Part shown: positions 9,005-52,556 of the stretch, one piece after another
Layout: each line of letters begins with the position of its first letter
Numbering within the stretch: position 1 is the first letter of the stretch
NCBI GenBank assembly: GCA_964016885.1
Contig: OZ024743.1
Location: 40,858,001 to 40,922,000 of the forward strand
Direction: 5' to 3'
DNA from: Eledone cirrhosa
Taxonomy: Eukaryota
DNA length: 64,000 bases
Made by a program: the position numbers and the translations under genes
The notes under the pieces: model-generated
The model's database searches: none
What the model saw: the letters and a program-made list of their open reading frames with translations, nothing else
What the model was told of the DNA's origin: nothing

Positions 9005-9570
9005 TTGGCTGTTGTTGTTATTCCATTCATTTTTTCTGTTTAGCTTTGGCCTTCTAAGTTCTATTTCGCTGAACTCTCTGATTTCCCTATCTGCTGGGTC
9101 ATTTCTATGTTTAGATATTATTCTAATTTCTATGTTGTCTATGTTACCGTCGTGTTGTTGTCTGGCGTGTTCGTATAGTACTGAGCCGTATTTTCGTCCT
9201 TTTAGCCCCCCCCCCCCCAGTGATGGTCTATCCTTTCACCTATGCTACGGACTGTCTCACCTATGTATGTTGTTGTCAGGTTTCTGCAAGTACCCTCTGT
9301 ACATCTTATGCTATAGACTACGTTTCTAGTTTTACAGTTTTTGCGGAGGTTTACTTTACATATAATACATTTCCTATTGGTACAGTGGGTTTTCTTAAAA
9401 GGGTAGGTTTTGCTGATCAGGGATTTTATGGTGGTTCCTGGCTTTTCTATCACCTTAACCTTTAAGTGGGTCTTTCTCAGGGCCTTTCTACACTGGGCAG
9501 CTAATTTCCCTCCAGGGGTAGCGTTCACGAACATGAAACTCTGGGTATCTCTGGTTGTCATACCATGAGG
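9005..9570 (-). pseudogene. Penelope-like element GIY-YIG endonuclease remnant (Nematis-like)
   Basis: FVNATPGGKL...KVKVIEKPG...PF..THCTNRKCIIC...NVVYSIRC...YIGETVRSIGERIDHH, frameshift at poly-G, then SVLYEHARQQH...RPKLNRKNEW. Confidence 0.9.
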
Positions 9571-9593
9571 TGGCTTTCCCTATATTATGTGTA

Positions 9594-9674: not shown

Positions 9675-10560
9675 CTAGCATTAAAGCCCGGCGTTGCTCG
9701 GTGTCAGTAAGTTACCAAAGTTTGGTTGCACCAGCCATTTTATGGCGGCACTTTTTTGTCTGCCAGGCACTGGGTGAATGAATTGCAGGCCTGGACTGCC
9801 GAAGCAGGAGCTGCGCCAGCAGTGACAATTGTAGTTTTGCCTATGGATATTATCTCTGAACAAAGAAGTGTTGAAATTTATTGTTTCACAGTACTTGCGC
9901 AACACGCACGTAGACGATGCCAGCCGAACAATAGAGCTGCGATGGAGTTGTTCTGCATAGTTGTCTAATGTGTGTTTTCTAAATTTAAGACAGTAGGGAG
10001 GGGTGTGATATGGGGGAGAGTTAGCTGCTGTTTCTAGCAGGTTTAGTGACCTCATAGAGGATATGTGTTTTCTAAATTTAAGACAGTAGGGAGTGGTGTG
10101 ATATAGGGGGAGTTAGCTGCTGTTTCTAGCTGGTTTAGTGACCTTATAGAGGATATGCTTTCTAAATTTAAGCTAGTAGGGAGGGGTGTGATATGGAGGA
10201 GAGTTAGCTGCTGTTTCTAGCAGATTCAGTGACCTCATAGAGGATATTATTGTGTATAGTAAATAAACTGATACTTCTTTCTTCCACGTTCGTTGAGAGG
10301 TTTAAAAATGATTTATCGCTCTTTTTTTGTTGTTGAATGAATTTATCTGTTGCTTTGGAATAATTGTTGTTTCGTATGAAATGTAATAAGTTCTCTTTGT
10401 CATTGAAGTAAATAAATGCTTGACCGTTCCACACTCAAAACCAAACGTTCTCTCTCTCTCTCACTCTCTCTCCTTCTCACTCTCTTCTCTCTCTCTTCGG
10501 CGTTCCTAAAGAAGTTTATAAGCATGTATGTAGTTTTATCGAATTTTAAGGAGACTAGAT
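9675..10560 (-). mobile_element. Non-autonomous Helitron-like element
   Basis: Minus-strand 3' end ccgagcaacgccgggctttaatgCTAG|T. Putative TC start near 10559. Confidence 0.6.
9969..10246. repeat. ~91 bp minisatellite x3 inside the Helitron-like element
   Basis: ttttctaaatttaagacagtagggag...gttagctgctgtttctagc...gacctcatagaggatat occurs three times. Confidence 0.92.
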
Positions 10561-14796: not shown

Positions 14797-15297
14797 CCTT
14801 CCTCAGTGTACCGTTTGTGTCGTTAATTCCGTTACATTTTACACACATACACACTCTCCCTCTATCTCTCACACACATATATATATATATTCCCATATAA
14901 TATTCAAGTGATTTAAACAACATTAAATGTTAAACATGGTGCACTATAATATATATATACCTATATTCACTTATGCACAAACGAACCAACGCAACGGAAT
15001 TTAAATTATAATTATGGGGAAAATCCCTCTGAAATATTTGGTAAAAGATTTAATTATGTGTACTAGATAGAAATAGAGAAATAGTGTGTGTTTGCATGAC
15101 TATATATGAGGTATATGAGTGAGGGGTAGAGAGAGAGTCAGAGAAGGAAAGAAAGAGAGAATTGGTAAGAACTGGAAGAAACAGAAATCATGTGGGTGTG
15201 TGGGGCGGGTATACATATATGTCATCCCAGGAACAGTTTTTGATAGCGCTAGTTTGTGATTTAAATTCAGGAATTTTATATTCTTTGAATGAAAAGA

Positions 15298-15381
15298 ACC
15301 TTCTGACGAGAATCTCTCTTTGCAACGAAGGCCGTATGGTCTCCGTTTTATTTTTGGGATTCGAAACCGATCGGTAAAGGT
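15298..15381 (+). ncRNA. Type I hammerhead ribozyme, copy 1
   Basis: ACCUU-CUGACGA-GAAUCUC...GGGAUUC-GAAA-CCGAUCGG-UA-AAGGU. Confidence 0.92.
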
Positions 15382-15781
15382 AACTATAGTAGGTAAAGTC
15401 AATTTTTTTAAAATTTATTTTGAAACTTTTTCATTATTTACTAAACCTTGTTTATATTTGTTCTGGCTCGTTAATTTATTAACCCGCCATTGAACCACAT
15501 TGGCACTTGGTTGGACAATACATGCGTACCTTGGCGCCTTGTGCGTGAAGGGACGTATTTCATATTACTACTACCTCCACTAACGTTGAGAACAAACCGG
15601 GTCATTCCGACTGCTGCTGGCAACAGCGGTGGCTAGTTTGACCTACCTCCTTTTGCCTCTATCTTTGCTACGGCCCTTGATAAACCTGTTCTACATAATC
15701 CACTCTCATCCCAGGAACAGTTTTTGATAGCGCTAGTTTGTGATTTAAATTCAGGAATTTTATATTCTTTGAATGAAAAGA

Positions 15782-15865
15782 ACATTCTGACGAGAATCTC
15801 TCTTTGCAACGAAGGCCGTATGGTCTCCGTTTTATTTTTGGGATTCGAAACCGATCGGTAAAGGT
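15782..15865 (+). ncRNA. Type I hammerhead ribozyme, copy 2 (one stem I mismatch)
   Basis: Same as copy 1 but with ACAUU in stem I. Confidence 0.88.
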
Positions 15866-16264
15866 AACTATAGTAGGTAAAGTCAATTTTTTAAAATTTA
15901 TTTTGAAACTTTTTCATTATTTACTAAACCTTGTTTATATTTGTTCTGGCTCGTTAATTTATTAACCCGCCATTGAACCACATTGGCACTTGGTTGGACA
16001 ATACATGCGTACCTTGGCGCCTTGTGCGTGAAGGGACGTATTTCATATTACTACTACCTCCACTAACGTTGAGAACAAACCGAGCCATTCCGACTGCTGC
16101 TGGCAACAGCGGTGGCTAGTTTGACCTACCTCCTTTTGCCACTATCTTTGCTACGGCCCTTGATAAACCTGTTCTACATCATCCACTCTCATCCCAGGAA
16201 CAGTATTTGATAGCGCTAGTTTGTGATTTAAATTCAGGAATTTTATATTCTTTGAATGAAAAGA

Positions 16265-16348
16265 ACCTTCTGACGAGAATCTCTCTTTGCAACGAAGGCC
16301 GTATGGTCTCCGTTTTATTTTTGGGATTCGAAACCGATCGGTAAAGGT
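16265..16348 (+). ncRNA. Type I hammerhead ribozyme, copy 3
   Basis: Identical to copy 1. Confidence 0.92.
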
Positions 16349-16589
16349 AACTATAGTAGGTAAAGTCAATTTTTTTACTATTTATTTTGAAACTTTTTCA
16401 TTATTTACTAAACCTTGTTTATATTTGTTCTGGCTCGTTAATTTATTAACCCGCCATTGAACCACATTGGCACTTGGTTGGACAATACATGCGTACCTTG
16501 GCGCCTTGTGCGTGAAGGGACGTATTTCATATAGTATGTATATATATATATATGTGTGTGTGTAATGTGTATGTGTTTGTTTGTGTGTG

Positions 16590-17788: not shown

Positions 17789-17999
17789 AAGAAAGAGGGA
17801 TTTATTTAATTATGTCTCATAAAATAATACAACCAACTATCCACGAAATACAGTATAGTTTCCACCTCAAACACATAAATGGGATTATGCTCAGGTATAT
17901 CCTAATGTTTGTTGTGTGAGATGGAGTTGGTCAGAGTATCGCTAAAAGTTTTCTGTGTTAATGTATTAAATATTAATTAATTAATTATATATATATATA

Positions 18000-18050
18000 A
18001 GTATGTATACGTACATACATATATGTATACAGACGTACAGTAGTGTGTAT

Positions 18051-18122
<72 letters not shown>

Positions 18123-18719
18123 TATATAAGTACGTATTGGTTTACCGAACATTTATTATAATGCTCGGTTTGTTTGAAAACAAACAGCCCGAATTATATC
18201 GTTGCCATTTTTTTCAACATTTACAAAGGAACGATGAACTAGTTTCTATCTTATTAGCTGTCATCAGCACCGTAAACATTCCTGTCAGTCAATTGAACGT
18301 TTGAAAGTATATACTTTCAACAATGGTATATACATACTACTGTACGTCCGTATACATATATGTATGTACGTTTACATATTTATATTTAAATATCAGCCTA
18401 CTAAGAGTGAGAAATGAAATTTCATTTTTTCCAATTATCGTTTTCGGTATGCCCGGCCGACGAACTCACTCGATATGCAAATTAGGCTGTGCAGCCGTTA
18501 ATATGCATAAGGAAAGTATATACTTTCAAACGTTCAAGTGAATGACAGGAACGTATACGGCACGGATGACAGGTAATAAGCTAGAAACTAGTTCATCGTT
18601 CCTTTGTCAGTGTTGAACAAAATGGCAACGATGGTTGCCGAACACTGTACGGCGAATAATTTGGGCTGTTTGTTTAAAAACAAACCGAGCATTATAATAA
18701 ATGTTCGGTAACCCCATAC

Positions 18720-18790
<71 letters not shown>

Positions 18791-18886
18791 CATGTATGTC
18801 TGTATAGATATATGTATGTAGATATACATACTTATATTTAAGTATCAGCCTAACTAAGGGTGAGAAATGAAATTTCATTTTTTCCA
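18000..18886. mobile_element. Diverged head-to-head relative of the 41.1-45.6 kb HHR repeat
   Basis: Shares gaaagtatatactttc, gttttcggtatgcc, atatgcaaattaggctg and gagaaatgaaatttc. Orientation switches at ~18318. Confidence 0.88.
18230..18273 (-). ncRNA. Type I hammerhead ribozyme (diverged copy); decayed partner on + at 18557-18600
   Basis: ACGGUG-CUGAUGA-CAGCUAAUAAGAUA-GAAA-CUAG-UU-CAUCGU, with a weakened stem II. Confidence 0.7.
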
Positions 18887-19132: not shown

Positions 19133-19167
19133 TGTGAGAAAAGCAACAGACCCTCCATCTCAACTCT

Positions 19168-19205
19168 ACGTTTGAAACGCAGAAGAACTGTGAAACCGGT
19201 AAAGG
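19168..19205 (+). ncRNA. Decayed minimal hammerhead (U3-A8 type family), within repeat 19131-19270
   Basis: UUGAAAC-GCAG-AAGAA-CUGU-GAAA-CCGG-UA-AAGG. Relative at 33093-33130 (-). Confidence 0.45.
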
Positions 19206-21916: not shown

Positions 21917-21954
21917 GGAAGCAGCAAATTGCTTATTGTAATCCAGAAAATTGC

Positions 21955-22360
21955 TTTAGGTAATTGCCACCTACCTGAAATCTGTTCATTACATAATGAA
22001 TGTATGCAGTCTAACCTGGTTTACCAATGCATAGTAGAATCAGACAACCAGAAATGGTATTACATCGGAGCGACTGGTAATACATTTAAAGCTCGTTGGT
22101 ATATACACCGTTACGCAATGAAACATTCCCAGCATGGTTGTGTAACTACCCTTGCGAACAATACCTGGCAACTGAGGGAAAGTAACCATCAATACACCCT
22201 GAAGTGGAAAACATTATCAAACGCGCCCCCATATCGGAGTGGTATGAGAAGCTGTCGGTTATGTGACTTTCGAAGAATAAGTTACTCAACAATAAAATCG
22301 AAAGATCAATTTATTGTAACCATAGACTCAAAGAAAAGTGTTCGCACTACAAGTGCAAAC
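21955..22360 (+). pseudogene. Penelope-like element GIY-YIG endonuclease remnant (Naiad-like)
   Basis: NCHLPEICSLHNEC...LVYQCIV...YYIGATGNTFKARWYIH...TTLANNTWQLRE...LKWKTL..APPY...CRLC, then a frameshift and a terminal KCSH. Confidence 0.88.
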
Positions 22361-23519
22361 CGAACTCTTAACCTCTTACTACCACCTGACAAACTGCATA
22401 TACTTAGACTTTCTAACCTCTTATTATATCTAACCCCTTTAATTACCCACAAAAGCAAATACCTATATCCCTCCATCCTCCTTCATTCCTTTTCTATTTC
22501 TTATCGTTTTCTTCCTTTCATCTCTCCCTTTTTCGCTATCTTTTCTTTTCTTCTTTCTTTCCGCCCTCTTCTTTAATTTTATTTTTTTATTATTTTTTCA
22601 TATATATATTTATCTCTCTATCTCTTCACCCCCCTCTCTCTCTCTCCATCCGTCCCACTATAAACAATTTAATTATCTTTAACTCCCTACACTGTAAATC
22701 AACGACAAGAAGTCTACGTATCAAAACTGAACGAGGAATCTTTCCACACCCACCCCTCCCTCCATCTCAGTTTGTCATCCTACTTCCTAAGTCCTCTACC
22801 CCTTCCTCTCTCTCTATACTACTACGTTTATCAATCCACTTTCTAATTCCTCTTCCTCTCACTCTATACAAGTAAATACAATTCCCAAAAAGCGTTTTTC
22901 TATATATTAAGAACTTTTAACGAGTAACGTTTTCACTATTTTGAAAATTTGGACCTGTACATCAATTATTATTTAGTGGCTGCCATTTGCAGTATAGCAA
23001 TATAAGCTTGCAATTAACAATGAAACGGTCGTAAACACCTGGATAAAATCCCTTTTTTTAATGCTTACCTGTGTTTTCTTTTTTATCCTATATATATATA
23101 TATATACATATATATATAGGATTGGATTCATAGCTTTTGCCGTATATCTAGCATCAGAGCGTATAAGCCCTCAGAACGGAGAAAAATGGGTCTATATTTT
23201 GTCACCAGTGTAAATTATCAGACTTATTAACTATTATTTTCAGTTCTCAAATAGTATTATCGTTATCTGCATTGTGGAGACTATATATAAAACATAATAA
23301 TATTATATAAAAAATACTAAATATTAAATTTTAAAGTTAAGAAATATATTTTCTGGAATATTAAATTATAACTTCATCAGAGAAAAACATTTTTTTTAGT
23401 TGGAAAAATATGAATATGACAGGATTTAATTTGTAAATCAATGGAAAACTTTCATTTAATTTCCTGTGGATTCGGTTTGAAGGAAATGGTCCGAAAACCA
23501 AAAAGTACAGGACAGCTGT

Positions 23520-31660: not shown

Positions 31661-33092
31661 CAAAATCGCAGGCTACAGCACATACCTGATCACAAAATCA
31701 CAACTTGCGAAGTGAACACAGCAATTTCACTCGGCACACTAACAGAGTAAGGTCACTTCTAGCTCTCACTGCACACGCAAACGTATGATGCCATATGTTG
31801 GTGCACTAAGGAACTAGTCTGCTCTACAGAACTAATGTATTTCGCTATAAACTAATGTCTATCGTAGAAGAACTCTAAGTATATTTTGAAATATTTGATA
31901 TTTCTTAAACATCCACTCCCTCCATTACTTTTTCTATTTCTTTCAATTTAGAAATTAATACTATCCTCAAAAATTAAAATGTCAAAATGATTAATACTTC
32001 CAGAATTATCGTATTTAATTCTTCCAACTTACTGTCACTGACATTTTAATATCAATGTGTTTCGATGCATTTTTTCTCAATATATATTGTATATATTTAA
32101 AATAATATCTGCATTACTGTTCACTAGACTCTACGTCATGATGACGTCAGCAGAGATTCATACATTGTACAATACTATACGTCTGTCCCTGAACACCTGC
32201 TACAGCTGTGATGCGTCGTTATGATGCACGACAAAATCTGGGCATCAAAATATTTGAGTCACACACCAAATATGTGGAAGAGATAGAGAGAGTAGAGGGT
32301 TTTGGTCTACGTGCTGGACTGATACTATTTTCTACAGCTGCCTGAGCCAGCACTCACTTTAGTTATCGATCTAGAAAGAATGGACGACAATAATGCAATC
32401 AACTTGCAAGAAGATGTTTATTATTTCGTTTACAAGATATACTTCTCTAATTTTAAAACGGTTCTTGAACTACACACTGAAGATACTTCCGTGGTAATAT
32501 CTCGACAAATACAGCATGTGCTAAGTAAGCTTCTACTAAGAACTTTCTGTTTTCACCATAAGTTCACAGCTTATCTATGCTCTTATCATTTATCATGTAT
32601 TGTGTGGAATATTCTGTGAATATGCGTCGTTTAGCGGTTCAGATATTCAGCTTAGGTGTGCAATGTTGTAGGTTTGATTCCAGGTAGCTCATGATAGCCT
32701 TGACCAATATACTTTATTTCATATTGTTACAGGCCGCTAACAAGACACAAATGAGTTTTCTCTGTATTTGAAAACGCCAGCATTGTCATACGGTGTCACA
32801 CTGCATTTCGCTGAGAATTCACACGTTAGTATGACGAAGAAGCTGTTCTGTTCATGAAACATATGGTTCACACACTGTTTTGTTTAGATTTCTTTGCTCC
32901 ACCCTCGACACGGTTAAACATTTGTCTTACTCATGCTGCATGAGTATATATATATATTAGAAAGTGAGATTTTCTTACAAAATGAAAAATAACCGAGGTG
33001 TCCTACACGAGTGAAAGTATAAAGAAAAAAAGATGAAATCGAAAATGTAACTGGCGTCTTATTTTTAATGAAATATATATATTTATTCGGTT

Positions 33093-33130
33093 CCTTTACC
33101 GGTTTCGCAGTTCCTCTGCTTTTCATAAGA
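33093..33130 (-). ncRNA. Minimal hammerhead with variant core
   Basis: CUU-AUGAAAA-GCAG-AGGAA-CUGC-GAAA-CCGG-UA-AAG. Confidence 0.5.
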
Positions 33131-33315
33131 AAGTAAAGTTGAGATGGAGGGTCTGTGGTTTTTCTCACATCTGATATATACATATATATATATATCAGAT
33201 GTGAGAAAAACCACAGACCCTCCATCTTAAATCTACTATCCGGGAGCTTCCAACCGACATGGTCGCATTCTTTAAGGGTGTGTCAATATGTGTTTATAAA
33301 ACAGATCTATATTAT

Positions 33316-41076: not shown

Positions 41077-41111
<35 letters not shown>

Positions 41112-41190
41112 AGTACGTATGTATACGTACATACATATATGTATACAGACGTACAGTAGCATGCATATATATATACATACACACACACAC

Positions 41191-41248
<58 letters not shown>

Positions 41249-41410
41249 GCATACAGGTACACATACATATATGCACGCATCAGTTTAGCCGACGTTTATT
41301 ATAACGCCGACCGCTTTGTTCGTTTGTTTGTCAACAAAGCGAACAGCCTGAATTTATGCCATACGGTGTTAAGGCAACCACGTCACCTTTTTGTTCAACA
41401 CTGACACAGG

Positions 41411-41455
41411 AACGATGTACTAGTTTCAAGCTTGTTAGCTATCATCAGCACCGTT
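41411..41455 (-). ncRNA. Minimal type I hammerhead ribozyme, array copy 1
   Basis: AACGGUG-CUGAUGA-U-AGCU-AACA-AGCU-U-GAAA-CUAG-UA-CAUCGUU. Confidence 0.88.
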
Positions 41456-41718
41456 TACCCATCTGCCAGATAGTTGAACGTTCGAAAGTATATACTTTCC
41501 TTATGAAAATTAACGGCTGAGCAGCCTAATTTGCATATTGAGTGAGTTAAATCGGTCAGGCATACCGAAAACGATAAGTTGAAAAAAATGAAAACGAAAT
41601 TTCATTTCTCACTCTTAGTATGGCACTTACTTAAATGTAAGTACGTATGTATACGTACATACATATATGTATACAGACGTACAGTAGCATGCATATATAT
41701 ATACATACACACACACAC

Positions 41719-41782
<64 letters not shown>

Positions 41783-41944
41783 GCATACAGGTACACATAC
41801 ATATATGCACGCATCAGTTTAGCCGACGTTTATTATAACGCCGACCGCTTTGTTCGTTTGTTTGTCAACAAAGCGAACAGCCTGAATTTATGCCATACGG
41901 TGTTAAGGCAACCACGTCACCTTTTTGTTCAACACTGACACAGG

Positions 41945-41989
41945 AACGATGTACTAGTTTCAAGCTTGTTAGCTATCATCAGCACCGTT
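41945..41989 (-). ncRNA. Hammerhead ribozyme, array copy 2
   Basis: Identical motif. Confidence 0.88.
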
Positions 41990-42252
41990 TACCCATCTGC
42001 CAGATAGTTGAACGTTCGAAAGTATATACTTTCCTTATGAAAATTAACGGCTGAGCAGCCTAATTTGCATATTGAGTGAGTTAAATCGGTCAGGCATACC
42101 GAAAACGATAAGTTGAAAAAAATGAAAACGAAATTTCATTTCTCACTCTTAGTATGGCACTTACTTAAATGTAAGTACGTATGTATACGTACATACATAT
42201 ATGTATACAGACGTACAGTAGCATGCATATATATATACATACACACACACAC

Positions 42253-42298
<46 letters not shown>

Positions 42299-42460
42299 GC
42301 ATACAGGTACACATACATATATGCACGCATCAGTTTAGCCGACGTTTATTATAACGCCGACCGCTTTGTTCGTTTGTTTGTCAACAAAGCGAACAGCCTG
42401 AATTTATGCCATACGGTGTTAAGGCAACCACGTCACCTTTTTGTTCAACACTGACACAGG

Positions 42461-42505
42461 AACGATGTACTAGTTTCAAGCTTGTTAGCTATCATCAGCA
42501 CCGTT
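42461..42505 (-). ncRNA. Hammerhead ribozyme, array copy 3
   Basis: Identical motif. Confidence 0.88.
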
Positions 42506-42768
42506 TACCCATCTGCCAGATAGTTGAACGTTCGAAAGTATATACTTTCCTTATGAAAATTAACGGCTGAGCAGCCTAATTTGCATATTGAGTGAGTTAA
42601 ATCGGTCAGGCATACCGAAAACGATAAGTTGAAAAAAATGAAAACGAAATTTCATTTCTCACTCTTAGTATGGCACTTACTTAAATGTAAGTACGTATGT
42701 ATACGTACATACATATATGTATACAGACGTACAGTAGCATGCATATATATATACATACACACACACAC

Positions 42769-42842
<74 letters not shown>

Positions 42843-43004
42843 GCATACAGGTACACATACATATATGCACGCATCAGTTTAGCCGACGTTTATTATAACG
42901 CCGACCGCTTTGTTCGTTTGTTTGTCAACAAAGCGAACAGCCTGAATTTATGCCATACGGTGTTAAGGCAACCACGTCACCTTTTTGTTCAACACTGACA
43001 CAGG

Positions 43005-43049
43005 AACGATGTACTAGTTTCAAGCTTGTTAGCTATCATCAGCACCGTT
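43005..43049 (-). ncRNA. Hammerhead ribozyme, array copy 4
   Basis: Identical motif. Confidence 0.88.
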
Positions 43050-43264
43050 TACCCATCTGCCAGATAGTTGAACGTTCGAAAGTTTGAAACTAGTACATCG
43101 TTCCTGTGTCAGTGTTGAACAAAAAGGTGACGTGGTTGCCTTAACACCGTATGGCATAAATTCAGGCTGTTCGCTTTGTTGACAAACAAACGAACAAAGC
43201 GGTCGGCGTTATAATAAACGTCGGCTAAACTGATGCGTGCATATATGTATGTGTACCTGTATGC

Positions 43265-43334
<70 letters not shown>

Positions 43335-43597
43335 GTGTGTGTGTGTATGTATATATATATGCATGCTACTGTACGTCTGTATACATATATGTATGTACGT
43401 ATACATACGTACTTACATTTAAGTAAGTGCCATACTAAGAGTGAGAAATGAAATTTCGTTTTCATTTTTTTCAACTTATCGTTTTCGGTATGCCTGACCG
43501 ATTTAACTCACTCAATATGCAAATTAGGCTGCTCAGCCGTTAATTTTCATAAGGAAAGTATATACTTTCGAACGTTCAACTATCTGGCAGATGGGTA

Positions 43598-43642
43598 AAC
43601 GGTGCTGATGATAGCTAACAAGCTTGAAACTAGTACATCGTT
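43598..43642 (+). ncRNA. Hammerhead ribozyme, array copy 5
   Basis: aacggtgCTGATGAtagctaacaagcttGAAActagtacatcgtt. Confidence 0.88.
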
Positions 43643-43804
43643 CCTGTGTCAGTGTTGAACAAAAAGGTGACGTGGTTGCCTTAACACCGTATGGCATAAA
43701 TTCAGGCTGTTCGCTTTGTTGACAAACAAACGAACAAAGCGGTCGGCGTTATAATAAACGTCGGCTAAACTGATGCGTGCATATATGTATGTGTACCTGT
43801 ATGC

Positions 43805-43874
<70 letters not shown>

Positions 43875-44137
43875 GTGTGTGTGTGTATGTATATATATAT
43901 GCATGCTACTGTACGTCTGTATACATATATGTATGTACGTATACATACGTACTTACATTTAAGTAAGTGCCATACTAAGAGTGAGAAATGAAATTTCGTT
44001 TTCATTTTTTTCAACTTATCGTTTTCGGTATGCCTGACCGATTTAACTCACTCAATATGCAAATTAGGCTGCTCAGCCGTTAATTTTCATAAGGAAAGTA
44101 TATACTTTCGAACGTTCAACTATCTGGCAGATGGGTA

Positions 44138-44182
44138 AACGGTGCTGATGATAGCTAACAAGCTTGAAACTAGTACATCGTT
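44138..44182 (+). ncRNA. Hammerhead ribozyme, array copy 6
   Basis: Identical motif. Confidence 0.88.
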
Positions 44183-44344
44183 CCTGTGTCAGTGTTGAAC
44201 AAAAAGGTGACGTGGTTGCCTTAACACCGTATGGCATAAATTCAGGCTGTTCGCTTTGTTGACAAACAAACGAACAAAGCGGTCGGCGTTATAATAAACG
44301 TCGGCTAAACTGATGCGTGCATATATGTATGTGTACCTGTATGC

Positions 44345-44410
<66 letters not shown>

Positions 44411-44673
44411 GTGTGTGTGTGTATGTATATATATATGCATGCTACTGTACGTCTGTATACATATATGTATGTACGTATACATACGTACTTACATTTAAGT
44501 AAGTGCCATACTAAGAGTGAGAAATGAAATTTCGTTTTCATTTTTTTCAACTTATCGTTTTCGGTATGCCTGACCGATTTAACTCACTCAATATGCAAAT
44601 TAGGCTGCTCAGCCGTTAATTTTCATAAGGAAAGTATATACTTTCGAACGTTCAACTATCTGGCAGATGGGTA

Positions 44674-44718
44674 AACGGTGCTGATGATAGCTAACAAGCT
44701 TGAAACTAGTACATCGTT
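44674..44718 (+). ncRNA. Hammerhead ribozyme, array copy 7
   Basis: Identical motif. Confidence 0.88.
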
Positions 44719-44880
44719 CCTGTGTCAGTGTTGAACAAAAAGGTGACGTGGTTGCCTTAACACCGTATGGCATAAATTCAGGCTGTTCGCTTTGTTGACA
44801 AACAAACGAACAAAGCGGTCGGCGTTATAATAAACGTCGGCTAAACTGATGCGTGCATATATGTATGTGCACCTGTATGC

Positions 44881-44940
<60 letters not shown>

Positions 44941-45202
44941 GTGTGTGTGTGTATGTATATATATATGCATGCTACTGTACGTCTGTATACATATATGTAT
45001 GTACGTATACATACGTACTTACATTTAAGTAAGTGCCATACTAAGAGTGAGAAATGAAATTTCGTTTTCATTTTTTCAACTTATCGTTTTCGGTATGCCT
45101 GACCGATTTAACTCACTCAATATGCAAATTAGGCTGCTCAGCCGTTAATTTTCATAAGGAAAGTATATACTTTCGAACGTTCAACTATCTGGCAGATGGG
45201 TA

Positions 45203-45247
45203 AACGGTGCTGATGATAGCTAACAAGCTTGAAACTAGTACATCGTT
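45203..45247 (+). ncRNA. Hammerhead ribozyme, array copy 8
   Basis: Identical motif. Confidence 0.88.
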
Positions 45248-45409
45248 CCTGTGTCAGTGTTGAACAAAAAGGTGACGTGGTTGCCTTAACACCGTATGGC
45301 ATAAATTCAGGCTGTTCGCTTTGTTGACAAACAAACGAACAAAGCGGTCGGCGTTATAATAAACGTCGGCTAAACTGATGCGTGCATATATGTATGTGTA
45401 CCTGTATGC

Positions 45410-45469
<60 letters not shown>

Positions 45470-45609
45470 GTGTGTGTGTGTATGTATATATATATGCATG
45501 CTACTGTACGTCTGTATACATATATGTATGTACGTATACATACGTACTTACATTTAAGTAAGTGCCATACTAAGAGTGAGAAATGAAATTTCGTTTTCAT
45601 TTTTTTCAA

Positions 45610-45698
<89 letters not shown>

Positions 45699-46881
45699 AT
45701 ATATATATGTATGTATATATATATTTATATATATCGTATTCACCAATATAGCCTCGACTGTATAATACCTGAATACCTTCTATCTGGTTTATCATATGTG
45801 TTTATATTATATTATATTATATTATATTATATTATATTACAATAGCGATAATAGCGTAACAGTGTAAAACTTTAATAGTGTCAGTAAACCAAGTACTTAC
45901 TTAGCAGACGATTTACTCTCGAATAGTCTGATGTTGAAATTCTACAATCATAAGCTATTCAGAACATCAATACATTGAATAAGACATGATACTAACCTTT
46001 AACATCGTAAATGTTGGCAACAGAATTTCGACCTATCGCCTATAAAATGAAACAAAGCCACTTATATTTTCCAGGATATATATATATAAGCAAAGGGATA
46101 TTTAATTTGTTGGTAATTCAACAAATATATTCATTTATAACTGATTCGAAGCACTCGACAAGTTTTCTGGATATAATATCAATGATATTAATAAATGGAA
46201 ACTATATTTATAAAACCATATTTATTCTATTATATATATTTCAACGGTACAATACTTTGGTATGCTCTCATGAGATAAAATACAAAGTTTGTTTTATAAA
46301 TATTGACATATCCATGTCTTGGTATCATGTGGCTGGGCTCGCCTGTCGCAGTATTCAATTTGTCAAGCTGTCTAACGCATGTTATTACTCTAAGGTGACA
46401 CAACCTTATCGAGTGCTTTGCTGCTCATTCCTAATTGTATATCGTTAGCTTGGCCACAGCCAAAACTTCGATTTTCCTAAACTTCCATTCGTATATATAT
46501 ATACATGCGTGTATGTGCGTGTGTGATAGTGTGTGTGTGTGCGAGTGTGTGTGTGTATGTGTGTGCGCGTGCGTATGTAGTGCGTAGTGTCTAGTGTCTG
46601 CTCAGCGCTTATTCTGTGAAGACCACTAATGAAAGTAGTCCTTGCTGCATAATGTGATGCAGATTTGGTACATGCGAGAATACATTATTATACACTCGTA
46701 TGAGGGAACTCGCGAGCATCGCCTTTAGGAACTAACGCTCGTATATATTCTTCCTATATATCATATGATTCCAGTTCCTCAGAGAAATAACAACACAACC
46801 AGTAGCTGGACATATAGTTGTATTGACTGAGCAAAACACACTTCAACAACAATTGTACCTGTCTTTCCCACGCCAATTCGG

Positions 46882-50444: not shown

Positions 50445-50521
50445 GCTGCTCAACGTATCGCGAAATAACTTTAAAAAAATGTTTTTAAAATAAAAATAGA
50501 TTATAATAATTGTTTCTAGTT

Positions 50522-50902
50522 TTTGGCACAAGACCAGCAAATACCCAGTACATTACTGGTACTTTATTTTATCGACCCCCGTAAGGATAAAAGGCAAAGT
50601 TAACCTCGGCGGGATTTGAACTCAGAATGGCAAGGACCGTAACTCTATGCGTCAAAGCATGGTGTCCGACCCACTACCGATACTGACAATCCACCACCCT
50701 AAATTATAATAATTGTTTATAATATTAGCACAAGGCCAGCAATTACTCCAGTACATTACTGGTACTTTATTTTATCGACTCCGTAAGGATGAAAGGCAAA
50801 GTGAAATCGGCGGGATTTGAGCTCACACCATAAAGGGGCGTAACTCTATGCTTCAAAGCATGGTGTCCGACCTTCTACTGATACTGCTAATCCCCGGCCC
50901 TA
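50522..50902 (-). mobile_element. Two tandem SINE copies (50522-50702, 50726-50902)
   Basis: actggtactttattttatcgac.ccgtaaggat.aaaggcaaagt...gggatttga.ctca occurs twice. Confidence 0.85.
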
Positions 50903-52556
50903 AATTTTAATAACGCAGGTATGTTTGTATATATATATTAATACATATATATTTGCTTCTAACTCTTTAAAATTTACGCAGACAAGCATGCACACATATG
51001 CACACTGTGTATTTATTATACCAGTCACATTTCTACAATAAGAAATTCGCTTCCCAATCATAAGGTGTTGAGTTCTAACCCTTTGTCCTTGTAAATAGCT
51101 CTTTACTCGTATATTTAATCCTGCAAATCACGTTTACATATATGATGGATACGTATGTAATTATATTCTAGAATTAAATTACTATAATGTTATTCTTATA
51201 TCTAATAATCTCTATGAGTCAAAAATTGCCCTAAATGGATAGGTTACTCTGATGGAAACTATTAACTTATCAAAACGCATATTCCCAGTAAGAATGGTTT
51301 TACATATAGCTGGTAATATTTCCGTCTATCAATGTATATCTCCAAAAATTAAATACGGTCAACTCTATTGTCGTATTCATTGACAGCTTGCGTATCAAAT
51401 ATTATTATACTTTTGTTTCCAGATTTTGTTTTTATAGGCAGAATCACTAGAGCGTCGTATTAAATGCATATGTATTTGCTTAAACTCATTGTGCTCTGAA
51501 ATCAAATCATACTGATGTTAAATTTGCCATTCGTAATTCCATAGTTGATAAATATAGAACCAGTGTGGTGGACTTATGGTGTTACAGACGCGAATAGGGG
51601 TGCATTTCGGTAGATATACCTGCTATAAGCCTTCGTAGTTAACATCTTGCCTCCTTTGCCAGAAAAGCAGTGGCACTCCAGCAGGTTTTGCATCAATTAC
51701 AAAAATGATAAGATCATTGGAAACGCAATCCCCTGGTTATATATTAGGCTGGTAAGTTTCTTTAGAATATGTATGAAATGTTTTATATCAAGACACAAAG
51801 AAAATATATAGGAATTTCGATGGACACAATATAATAAGCACCATCTCCTTCACGTAATACGTAGTATGGCGTTTAATATCGGTACTTGGAAAAGCTGGCG
51901 AAAGGTGATAAGACTATAAAATGTCAGGACTTTTGGATGGAAACGGTGTAACTGAGGACGCTTCTCCCAGGAGATGTAACTAGTAGATAACATTCGCAGC
52001 GTAAAGCCAATTAGAAGAGGTATGCTTGGTTCGATCTGACGATCAACATCATTCTGTTAGAAATATAAAACAATGCATCTTGCAACTCTAAAATTATACT
52101 GTTTCTCTTCATAATCAAGAATTAGATAAACCTACATAGGATATATTATCTCGCTAGAGCAAAAGAGATAGTTATCTAAGGACACTTATATCTCTTCTGA
52201 AATATTTAGTTATCTAAATTAATTCACCTGTTTAAATTACATTGCATGTACATGAATTCACATAAAGATACACCTATACACGCAAACAAAAACGTACATA
52301 CACATACACATGCATATGTATATATACAGCATTCACTGTTTTGAAGCTATGCATAACATCCATTGACTTACAAAGTATTTAAACTAATTTATCTGGATAT
52401 TATAAATCAGGAAAAAATCTGAATCCGATTTTCAAAGGCACCATGTTGTACATAGGGAGCGGGGCGAGAAGAGAATGTAGCTGGGAAGTAAAGCATTATC
52501 ATTGAGAGAATATGCATGCTTACATCTAGTCAGTAAATGATTTCATACACAAACAT

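What the first reader, a model, noticed from the sequence alone, without database searches (positions are those of the whole stretch)
41108..45612. Young hammerhead-ribozyme satellite/retrozyme array of ~535 bp units arranged head-to-head
Seen: every monomer carries the same type I HHR, with a 7-bp stem I, CUGAUGA/GAAA core, GUA cleavage site and palindromic ACUAGU stem III. There are 8 full copies, 4 pointing left and 4 pointing right from a junction at 43083/43084. The monomers have no coding capacity, the array has (TA)n flanks, and unit length varies mainly through an internal (TA)n tract. Known: tandem monomers with minimal type I HHRs that cleave as dimers characterise newt satellite 2, schistosome Sm-alpha, cricket pDo500, metazoan non-LTR retrozymes and PLE pseudo-LTRs. 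Inference: this is a non-autonomous, RNA-propagated element producing 516-544 nt self-cleaved and possibly circular monomers, mobilised by PLE reverse transcriptase. I am not aware of this family being described, but did not search.
Basis: partly seen in the sequence, partly recalled or inferred. Interest (0 to 1): 0.9.

Follow-up and report, generated by a model that had tools for sequence, protein, structure and literature searches.

The report
Hammerhead retrozyme arrays with Penelope-type ends
A roughly 500-base non-coding repeat carrying a hammerhead ribozyme motif lies in over ten thousand copies in this animal genome, mostly as back-to-back arrays inside TA microsatellites with the end pattern of Penelope-like jumping genes, and was likely copied in by their enzyme from a predicted circular RNA; the kind (retrozyme) is known, but these arrays make its unproven copying mechanism testable.

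Summary
Observation confirmed: eight intact type I hammerhead motifs in seven complete units (516-544 bp), two arms diverging from 43083/43084, (TA)n flanks. It is not an assembly artefact but one insertion of a large family: 10,391 exact hammerhead cores genome-wide. Most sampled loci (39 of 58; 28 of 36) are head-to-head. Their outer ends sit at two fixed unit positions 58 nt apart, usually one of each per locus. A second, unrelated hammerhead family in this window and coding Penelope-like elements (PLEs) in the genome follow the same rule, which is the PLE 'tail' signature. Units within a locus are nearly identical across both arms (1.0 versus 5.6 differences between loci). This array's haplotype occurs nowhere else. 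One locus alternates two different units in both arms. Best reading: a non-LTR retrozyme whose arrays are born long, by PLE priming from both target strands on one, probably circular, RNA. Cleavage, circles, expression and the partner PLE are not shown, and some arrays clearly expanded later at DNA level. New member of a known kind; its value is as a test bed for the rolling-circle model.

The parts
41079..41107 (.). left (TA)n flank
41108..43083 (-). left arm, about 3.7 units; outer 3' end at unit position about 325 (upstream start site), inner 5' end at position 469
43084..45612 (+). right arm, about 4.7 units; inner 5' end at position 529, outer 3' end at position about 383 (downstream start site, carries the 58-nt tail)
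43083..43084 (.). head-to-head (5'-to-5') junction, blunt
43096..43635 (+). reference unit (540 nt), from one predicted cleavage site to the next; unit positions in this report count on it
43272..43360 (+). internal (TA)n/(TG)n tract of the reference unit; main source of length variation; predicted long hairpin
43420..43478 (+). 58-nt tail between the two family-wide 3' end sites (positions about 325 and 383); upstream site lies at the loop of a small predicted stem-loop
43598..43642 (+). type I hammerhead motif, predicted cleavage after 43635
44138..44182 (+). type I hammerhead motif, predicted cleavage after 44175
44674..44718 (+). type I hammerhead motif, predicted cleavage after 44711
45203..45247 (+). 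type I hammerhead motif, predicted cleavage after 45240
43005..43049 (-). type I hammerhead motif, predicted cleavage after 43012
42461..42505 (-). type I hammerhead motif, predicted cleavage after 42468
41945..41989 (-). type I hammerhead motif, predicted cleavage after 41952
41411..41455 (-). type I hammerhead motif, predicted cleavage after 41418
45613..45734 (.). right (TA)n flank
17998..18885 (.). older, 70-82% identical insertion of the same family, also head-to-head (junction about 18318/18327) with (TA)n at both ends

Best explanation
This is one young insertion of a high-copy, non-coding non-LTR retrozyme family whose arrays carry the end signature of Penelope-like elements (PLEs) and were likely written into a (TA)n tract in a single event by a PLE protein acting in trans, probably by rolling round a circular RNA. 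Steps. (1) Inferred: read-through transcripts of an array are cut by the hammerheads acting as dimers and the released monomers (sometimes dimers) are ligated into circles. (2) Inferred from shown end positions: a PLE reverse transcriptase/GIY-YIG protein cuts both strands of a TA-rich target and uses both 3' ends as primers on one RNA, one at unit position about 325, the other at about 383. (3) Inferred: each primer runs an independent, variable number of rounds through the cleavage site. (4) Shown as structure, inferred as process: the two cDNA ends are joined head-to-head, mostly through 0-4 nt of microhomology; if only one primer succeeds, a one-directional array results. (5) Shown: some arrays are later reshaped by DNA-level duplication and microsatellite slippage.
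For: Family size: 10,391 exact 36-nt hammerhead cores, 1,512 exact upstream-end+(TA)n junctions, 412 exact downstream-end+(TA)n junctions; reversed-pattern controls 0. Head-to-head: 10 of 14, 39 of 58 parsed, 28 of 36 parsed. End pairing: picked by the 383 end, 34 of 39 have the other end at 308-331 and 0 at 376-384; picked by the 325 end, 23 of 28 have the other end at 376-384. Same rule in the unrelated 483-bp hammerhead family (ends 236 and about 344; 18 of 20 listed head-to-head loci pair one of each) and in a coding PLE family of this genome (ends 68 nt apart, 5 of 5 paired loci; RT plus C-terminal GIY-YIG). Arm lengths uncorrelated (rho -0.09, n=34), either arm longer (23 vs 11), against fold-back copying. 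68 of 97 arms cross the predicted cleavage site and 0 of 97 inner ends lie within -5..+6 of it. Differences per 361 unique nt: 0.85 within loci, 1.03 across opposite arms, 5.6 between loci (233 copies, 32 loci). This array's 78-nt marker has 9 matches in the genome, all in this array. Locus L090 alternates two distinct units ABABABA in both arms, both arms ending in A; the A marker occurs only there. Hammerhead variation among 88 distinct copies falls at N7, loop II and one stem I pair (G.U 63, A-U 15, U.G 4, U-A 2) while the core is nearly invariant. The unique 361 nt fold better than shuffles, z -4.9. Literature: two internal start sites and extension of both target strands by a PLE protein (PMC11167929); cleavage of an axolotl hammerhead with the same U.U base of stem II and 2-bp stem III, and circles in vivo (PMC7229834).
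Against: No cleavage, circle or expression data here. The motif is below Rfam gathering scores and stem III has near-zero pairing probability in a monomer fold, so activity depends on dimers. In vitro the anole PLE preferred uncleaved RNA and did not need its hammerhead (PMC11167929), and 8 of 9 Xenopus retrozyme dimers did not cleave (bioRxiv 2026.07.22.740005). L138 is a mixed array (C', C, B, B, A'), as a linear multimer template would give. L030 has a 4-unit duplication in one arm only and L024 has at least 59 units with recurring blocks: DNA-level expansion happens. Many haplotypes are shared by several loci (17 distinct in 32; nearest neighbour in own locus 68, tie 149, elsewhere 16 of 233), and a second private-looking marker was found at 5 loci. 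The pairing rule has exceptions (L021 383/383, L025 both near 325; one 236/236). No partner PLE was identified by homology.
Confidence: 0.62

Rival explanations
1. Same element and same PLE double priming, but the template is a linear, uncleaved read-through transcript of an existing array; hammerhead cleavage and circles are incidental to transposition.
For: PMC11167929 found unprocessed RNA to be the dominant substrate in vitro. L138 keeps a mixed order of units. Absence of 5' ends at the cleavage site fits uncut RNA as well as circles. Long homogeneous arrays that could act as sources exist (L024), and subfamily haplotypes are shared between loci.
Against: Needs a homogeneous source array at least as long for every private haplotype; none exists in this assembly for this locus or for the L090 A unit. 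The strict AB alternation in both arms of L090 needs a pre-amplified (AB)4 source. Conservation of the core across subfamilies suggests cleavage is selected.
Confidence: 0.27
2. Short PLE-type insertions (1-2 units per arm) were expanded afterwards by unequal crossing-over, as proposed for vertebrate retrozymes; the array is an ordinary minisatellite of pLTR-like origin.
For: Shown for some loci: L030 4-unit duplication, L024 block repeats, L034 partial alternation. Model proposed in bioRxiv 2026.07.22.740005.
Against: Young arrays have several units in both opposite arms with zero substitutions (this locus, L033 15 copies, L102); expansion would have to outrun point mutation in both arms at many loci. 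L090 shows the same AB phase in both arms.
Confidence: 0.08
3. The inversion is an assembly or palindromic-read artefact, or a fold-back copy of the first cDNA strand.
For: One junction (L029) is palindromic; self-priming was proposed for PLE inversions (PMC3846280); three loci carry a short inverted copy of the opposite flank.
Against: Flanks are unrelated here, arms end at different fixed positions, and either arm can be longer. Opposite-strand joints of the unit also stand in contigs of public runs (two in X1, one in X6), though not tested for this exact junction.
Confidence: 0.03

Closest known systems
Metazoan non-LTR retrozymes (Cervera and de la Pena 2020, PMC7229834; Li, Clavereau and Pollet 2026, bioRxiv 2026.07.22.740005); newt satellite 2 and axolotl Rtz_331/Rtz_353
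   Same: Non-coding tandem units each with a type I hammerhead; high copy; low GC; structured RNA; co-occurs with PLEs. The hammerhead resembles axolotl HHR_Amex2 (2-bp stem III, U.U at the base of stem II).
   Different: Unit of about 480-570 bp is above the 150-450 bp of the 2020 paper though inside the 51-972 bp of the 2026 preprint; it contains its own (TA)n tract. In the text I read, those papers describe head-to-tail arrays and give no inverted arms, fixed ends or microsatellite targets. Cleavage and circles were shown there, not here.
Endonuclease-positive Penelope-like elements: pLTR, inverted 5'-truncated copy, optional tail, microsatellite bias (PMC8557442, PMC3846280, PMC11167929)
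   Same: Head-to-head arrangement, variable 5' truncation, two 3' ends defining a tail usually present at one end, (TA)n flanks, hammerhead in the repeat; the same layout in coding PLEs of this genome.
   Different: No ORF; up to ten or more units per arm; tail 58 nt (108 nt in the second family) versus 30-40 bp published; no homology to any PLE terminal repeat sampled.
Non-autonomous Chlamys elements such as MRC1 (PMC8557442, passage read)
   Same: Non-coding PLE passengers forming multicopy head-to-tail insertions.
   Different: Those share 3' sequence with an autonomous family and belong to a clade reported to lack canonical hammerheads; here the hammerhead is present and no partner is known.
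LINE-1 twin priming (recalled, no call)
   Same: Both target strands prime cDNA, giving an inverted 5' segment joined by microhomology.
   Different: Here both priming sites are fixed and 58 nt apart, and the inner ends are scattered rather than meeting at the second priming site.

Membership tests
Type I hammerhead ribozyme | Core CUGANGA, GAAA, NUH with stems I-III in type I order | tested here: met
   stem I 7 bp, stem II 4 bp, stem III 2 bp with palindromic ACUAGU
Type I hammerhead ribozyme | Standard pair closing stem II (10.1-11.1) | tested here: not met
   U.U in 81 of 88 distinct copies; precedent that still cleaves: axolotl HHR_Amex2 (PMC7229834)
Type I hammerhead ribozyme | Score at Rfam gathering threshold | tested here: not met
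   none; Hammerhead_HH9 18.5 bits versus 52
Type I hammerhead ribozyme | Conservation and covariation pattern of a functional fold | tested here: inconclusive
   changes at N7, loop II, one stem I pair with 6 of 88 two-sided changes; copies are related, so few independent events
Type I hammerhead ribozyme | Self-cleavage | not testable with these tools
   needs in vitro transcription
Non-LTR retrozyme | Non-coding tandem units, each with a type I hammerhead, at least two in a row | tested here: met
Non-LTR retrozyme | Dispersed, high-copy, mobile | tested here: met
Non-LTR retrozyme | Expressed as linear and circular monomer RNA | not testable with these tools
   no RNA run was listed
Non-autonomous PLE passenger | Inverted 5'-truncated arm, tail at one end, two 3' start sites | tested here: met
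Non-autonomous PLE passenger | Coding PLEs with the same insertion signature in the genome | tested here: met
Non-autonomous PLE passenger | Sequence homology to the pLTR of an autonomous family | tested here: inconclusive
   none with the families in 39 GIY-YIG loci and PLE copies met in other loci (best shuffle p 0.03 of 10 comparisons); only 150 of 10,595 candidates were scored
Autonomous PLE | RT plus GIY-YIG open reading frame | tested here: not met
   for this array; no ORF fused to the unit in 58 loci

The most novel reading that the evidence does not exclude
These arrays are a genomic record of rolling-circle retrotransposition: one PLE protein dimer grips one circular ribozyme RNA at two fixed sites, primes from both target strands and spools out two opposite multimers, and circular dimers of different units (L090) are copied the same way. 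The one-of-each end rule would hold for PLEs generally and explain their head-to-head and 'tail' structures; two loci with (TA)n inside a target duplication hint that the enzyme also adds (TA)n itself, feeding this genome's microsatellite load.
Probability: 0.4. Interest if true: 0.8.

Novelty: new member of a known kind. Interest (0 to 1): 0.55.

Why it matters
Whether animal retrozymes and PLEs transpose through circular RNA has been proposed since 2014 but not shown, and recent papers favour other routes (uncleaved multimer RNA; unequal crossing-over). This genome holds thousands of young insertions of two unrelated retrozyme families plus coding PLEs, all with one end rule, so the models make different, countable predictions here (private haplotypes, AB arrays, parent monomers), and a defined RNA substrate with two mapped start sites is available for reconstitution.

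Tried and rejected
Rfam: no hit at gathering score; the top E-value hits are microRNA models matching the TA tract and were rejected. Partner search: GIY-YIG search, ORF scans and sensitive alignments found no PLE whose terminal repeat matches the unit; family copies next to PLEs (L059, L072, L073, L082, L110, L120) are separate insertions, several in or near the PLE's own TA tail. RNA: no RNA holder listed; this is no evidence on expression. A read check of this locus's own junction could not be obtained, so that check stays open. Target-site duplications: 2 of 60 loci show a direct repeat beyond the TA runs against 2.4% in mismatched controls, so no general duplication is visible; none at this locus. 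Short-window folds of the hammerhead alone are not more stable than shuffles (z -0.3). Simple fold-back and same-molecule 'blocking' twin priming were rejected on arm lengths and scattered inner ends. Lunse et al. 2017 was not available; I saw it only as cited in PMC6765202. Earlier scan notes held nothing on this genome or sequence.
Full report
OBSERVATION. The array is as described. A minus-strand arm (41108-43083) and a plus-strand arm (43084-45612) diverge from a blunt junction and each runs out into (TA)n. There are eight intact type I hammerhead motifs and seven complete units of 516-544 bp, identical apart from the internal TA run, one TG insertion, one substitution and one single-base deletion. 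The motif has a 7-bp stem I, canonical core, a 4-bp stem II closed by U.U, and a 2-bp stem III whose palindrome allows a 6-bp stem in a dimer. Rfam does not call it at gathering score (HH9 18.5 bits, E 0.086). In a monomer fold stem II is firm and stem III absent. An axolotl retrozyme hammerhead with the same U.U and 2-bp stem III cleaves weakly alone and well as a dimer (PMC7229834). Among 88 distinct copies from 104 fetched stretches, subfamily changes fall at N7, loop II and one stem I pair while the core is nearly invariant; these copies are related, so this is suggestive only.

FAMILY. The window lies in a 3.0-Gb genome. From memory, a SINE-like repeat at 50500-50913 and the microsatellite load suggest an octopod; no call tested this. 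The 36-nt core has 10,391 exact matches. Contigs of public run X1 hold the unit at very high summed depth and show two opposite-strand joints of it, and X6 one; X4 laid nothing. An older relative lies at 17998-18885 in this window.

ARCHITECTURE. I examined three samples. (a) 14 loci from the best DNA hits: 10 head-to-head, 3 one-directional, 1 long array whose ends were not reached. (b) The first 61 places listed (412 exact junctions of unit position 383 with (TA)n) less one already held; 58 of 60 parsed: 39 head-to-head, 19 one-directional. The opposite end lies at 308-331 in 34 of 39 (one of these, L090, was cut by the fetch and confirmed), inside the internal TA tract in 3, cut or interrupted in 2, and at 376-384 in none. 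L132 and L133 are duplicates of one event. (c) The first 37 places (1,512 exact junctions of position 325 with (TA)n); 36 parsed: 28 called head-to-head, 23 with the opposite end at 376-384; three calls at 330 are 46-nt matches in self-complementary sequence that I did not inspect, two end elsewhere. Exceptions in sample (a): L021 ends twice at 383, L025 twice near 325, L023 and L031 have one off-site end. Inner ends are scattered; of 97 arms, 68 cross the predicted cleavage site and none starts within -5..+6 of it, with 16 inner ends unresolved inside the microsatellite. Of 23 junctions resolved, 14 have 1-4 nt of microhomology, 2 are blunt and 7 have inserted or unmatched bases. Arm lengths are uncorrelated and either can be longer, which a fold-back copy cannot give.

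THE SAME RULE ELSEWHERE. A second hammerhead family in this window (483-bp unit, 15222-16532) has fixed ends at 236 and about 344 joined to (TA)n. Counting by eye in the listing (17 rows not shown), 18 of 20 head-to-head loci pair one of each, one pairs 222 with 344, one has 236 twice. The genome holds many PLE copies (150 scored of 10,595 GIY-YIG candidates), with RT and C-terminal GIY-YIG in open frames up to 938-1,096 aa. Four families end in (TA)n at two sites 42-68 nt apart, and in the best-sampled one all 5 paired loci have one end of each; L070 shows it for another. This is the published PLE structure: an inverted 5'-truncated copy and a tail usually at one end (PMC8557442, PMC3846280), the tail being the stretch between two internal start sites of an enzyme that extends both target strands (PMC11167929). 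No sampled PLE shares sequence with the unit, so the partner is unknown.

HOW THE MULTIMERS ARISE. Over 361 unique nt, 233 copies in 32 multi-copy loci differ by 0.85 within loci, 1.03 across opposite arms and 5.6 between loci (253 copies at 90% identity or more in 56 loci were found, single-copy loci dropped). This array's marker has 9 matches in the genome, all here, so no source array is present in this assembly. L090 alternates two distinct units in both arms with the same phase; unit A occurs only there, unit B also twice in L138. A circular dimer explains this most simply. Against: haplotypes are often shared by subfamilies (17 distinct in 32 loci; the nearest-neighbour test is mostly ties); the L033 marker occurs at 5 loci; L138 is a mixed array, as a linear multimer template would give; L030 and L024 show later DNA-level duplication; and the assembly is one haplotype, so sources may be missing. 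I put PLE-mediated mobility near 0.9, birth as multimers by double priming near 0.8, and a circular template near 0.62.

COMPARISON. It works like, and meets the sequence-level criteria of, metazoan non-LTR retrozymes; expression as circles and cleavage are untested. The circle-to-tandem-cDNA model is stated as a proposal in PMC4209133 and PMC7229834; bioRxiv 2026.07.22.740005 links vertebrate retrozymes to PLE pLTRs and invokes unequal crossover; PMC11167929 favours uncleaved RNA. What I read: bioRxiv preprint, parts 1-3 of 5 (all main text); PMC7229834 parts 2-4 of 6 and a term search; PMC11167929 parts 1-2 of 4; PMC4209133 part 2 of 4; PMC8557442 passages and section 11; PMC3846280 and PMC6765202 passages; other papers as search listings only. 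No supplements were read; those of PMC8557442, PMC4209133 and PMC7229834 list families by species and could bear on novelty. Searches showed no description of this family or of the one-of-each end rule; Dfam and Repbase could not be searched.

VERDICT. Real; a new member of a known kind; ordinary as one locus, useful as a family because it lets competing models of retrozyme and PLE transposition be tested. Interest 0.55.

Noticed in passing
window 15222-16532 (+): Second, unrelated retrozyme family: 483-bp unit x2.7 with its own type I hammerhead (long stem II insert, palindromic stem III, predicted cleavage after 15376); genome-wide it shows head-to-head arrays with fixed ends at 236 and about 344 in (TA)n.
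   Followed up: partly
window 17998-18885: Older head-to-head copy of the 535-bp family with the same two end sites and decayed hammerheads.
   Followed up: partly
L090 (G000:C1:125825300-125832300, extended by L139, L140): Array alternating two different units in both inverted arms; best single piece of evidence for a dimeric template.
   Followed up: yes
L034, L102, L133: One end carries a 27-100 nt inverted copy of the opposite flank between two TA runs; unexplained by-product of insertion.
   Followed up: partly
L136, L199: 16-17 nt direct target duplications with a (TA)n run between the element and the duplicate, hinting at (TA)n added during insertion; only 2 of 60 loci.
   Followed up: partly
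L181: A 483-bp family array sits inside the internal (TA)n tract of a 535-bp family unit, so the unit carries its own target site.
   Followed up: no
L024 with L076, L077 (G000:C239:100200-129700): Satellite-like array of at least 59 units in one direction with recurring blocks; ends not reached.
   Followed up: partly
L063, L067, L070 3' regions; L060 5' region: Coding PLE families carry variant hammerhead-like motifs: one with the same U.U base of stem II and 2-bp palindromic stem III but a U at the cleavage position, another with an altered first core box.
   Followed up: no
L082, L132, L133: PLE family with an open frame over 1,000 aa containing a long asparagine-rich insert before the RT domain; asparagine-rich inserts are reported in rotifer Penelopes (PMC3846280).
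   Followed up: no
window 9202-9579 (-), 21917-22576 (+), about 19140-19200, about 33000-33200: Decayed PLE fragments: endonuclease-region frames and pieces of the L060-family terminal repeat.
   Followed up: no
window 50500-50913 and 9971-10247: 201-bp dimer of a SINE-like repeat and a 91-bp trimer; not examined.
   Followed up: no
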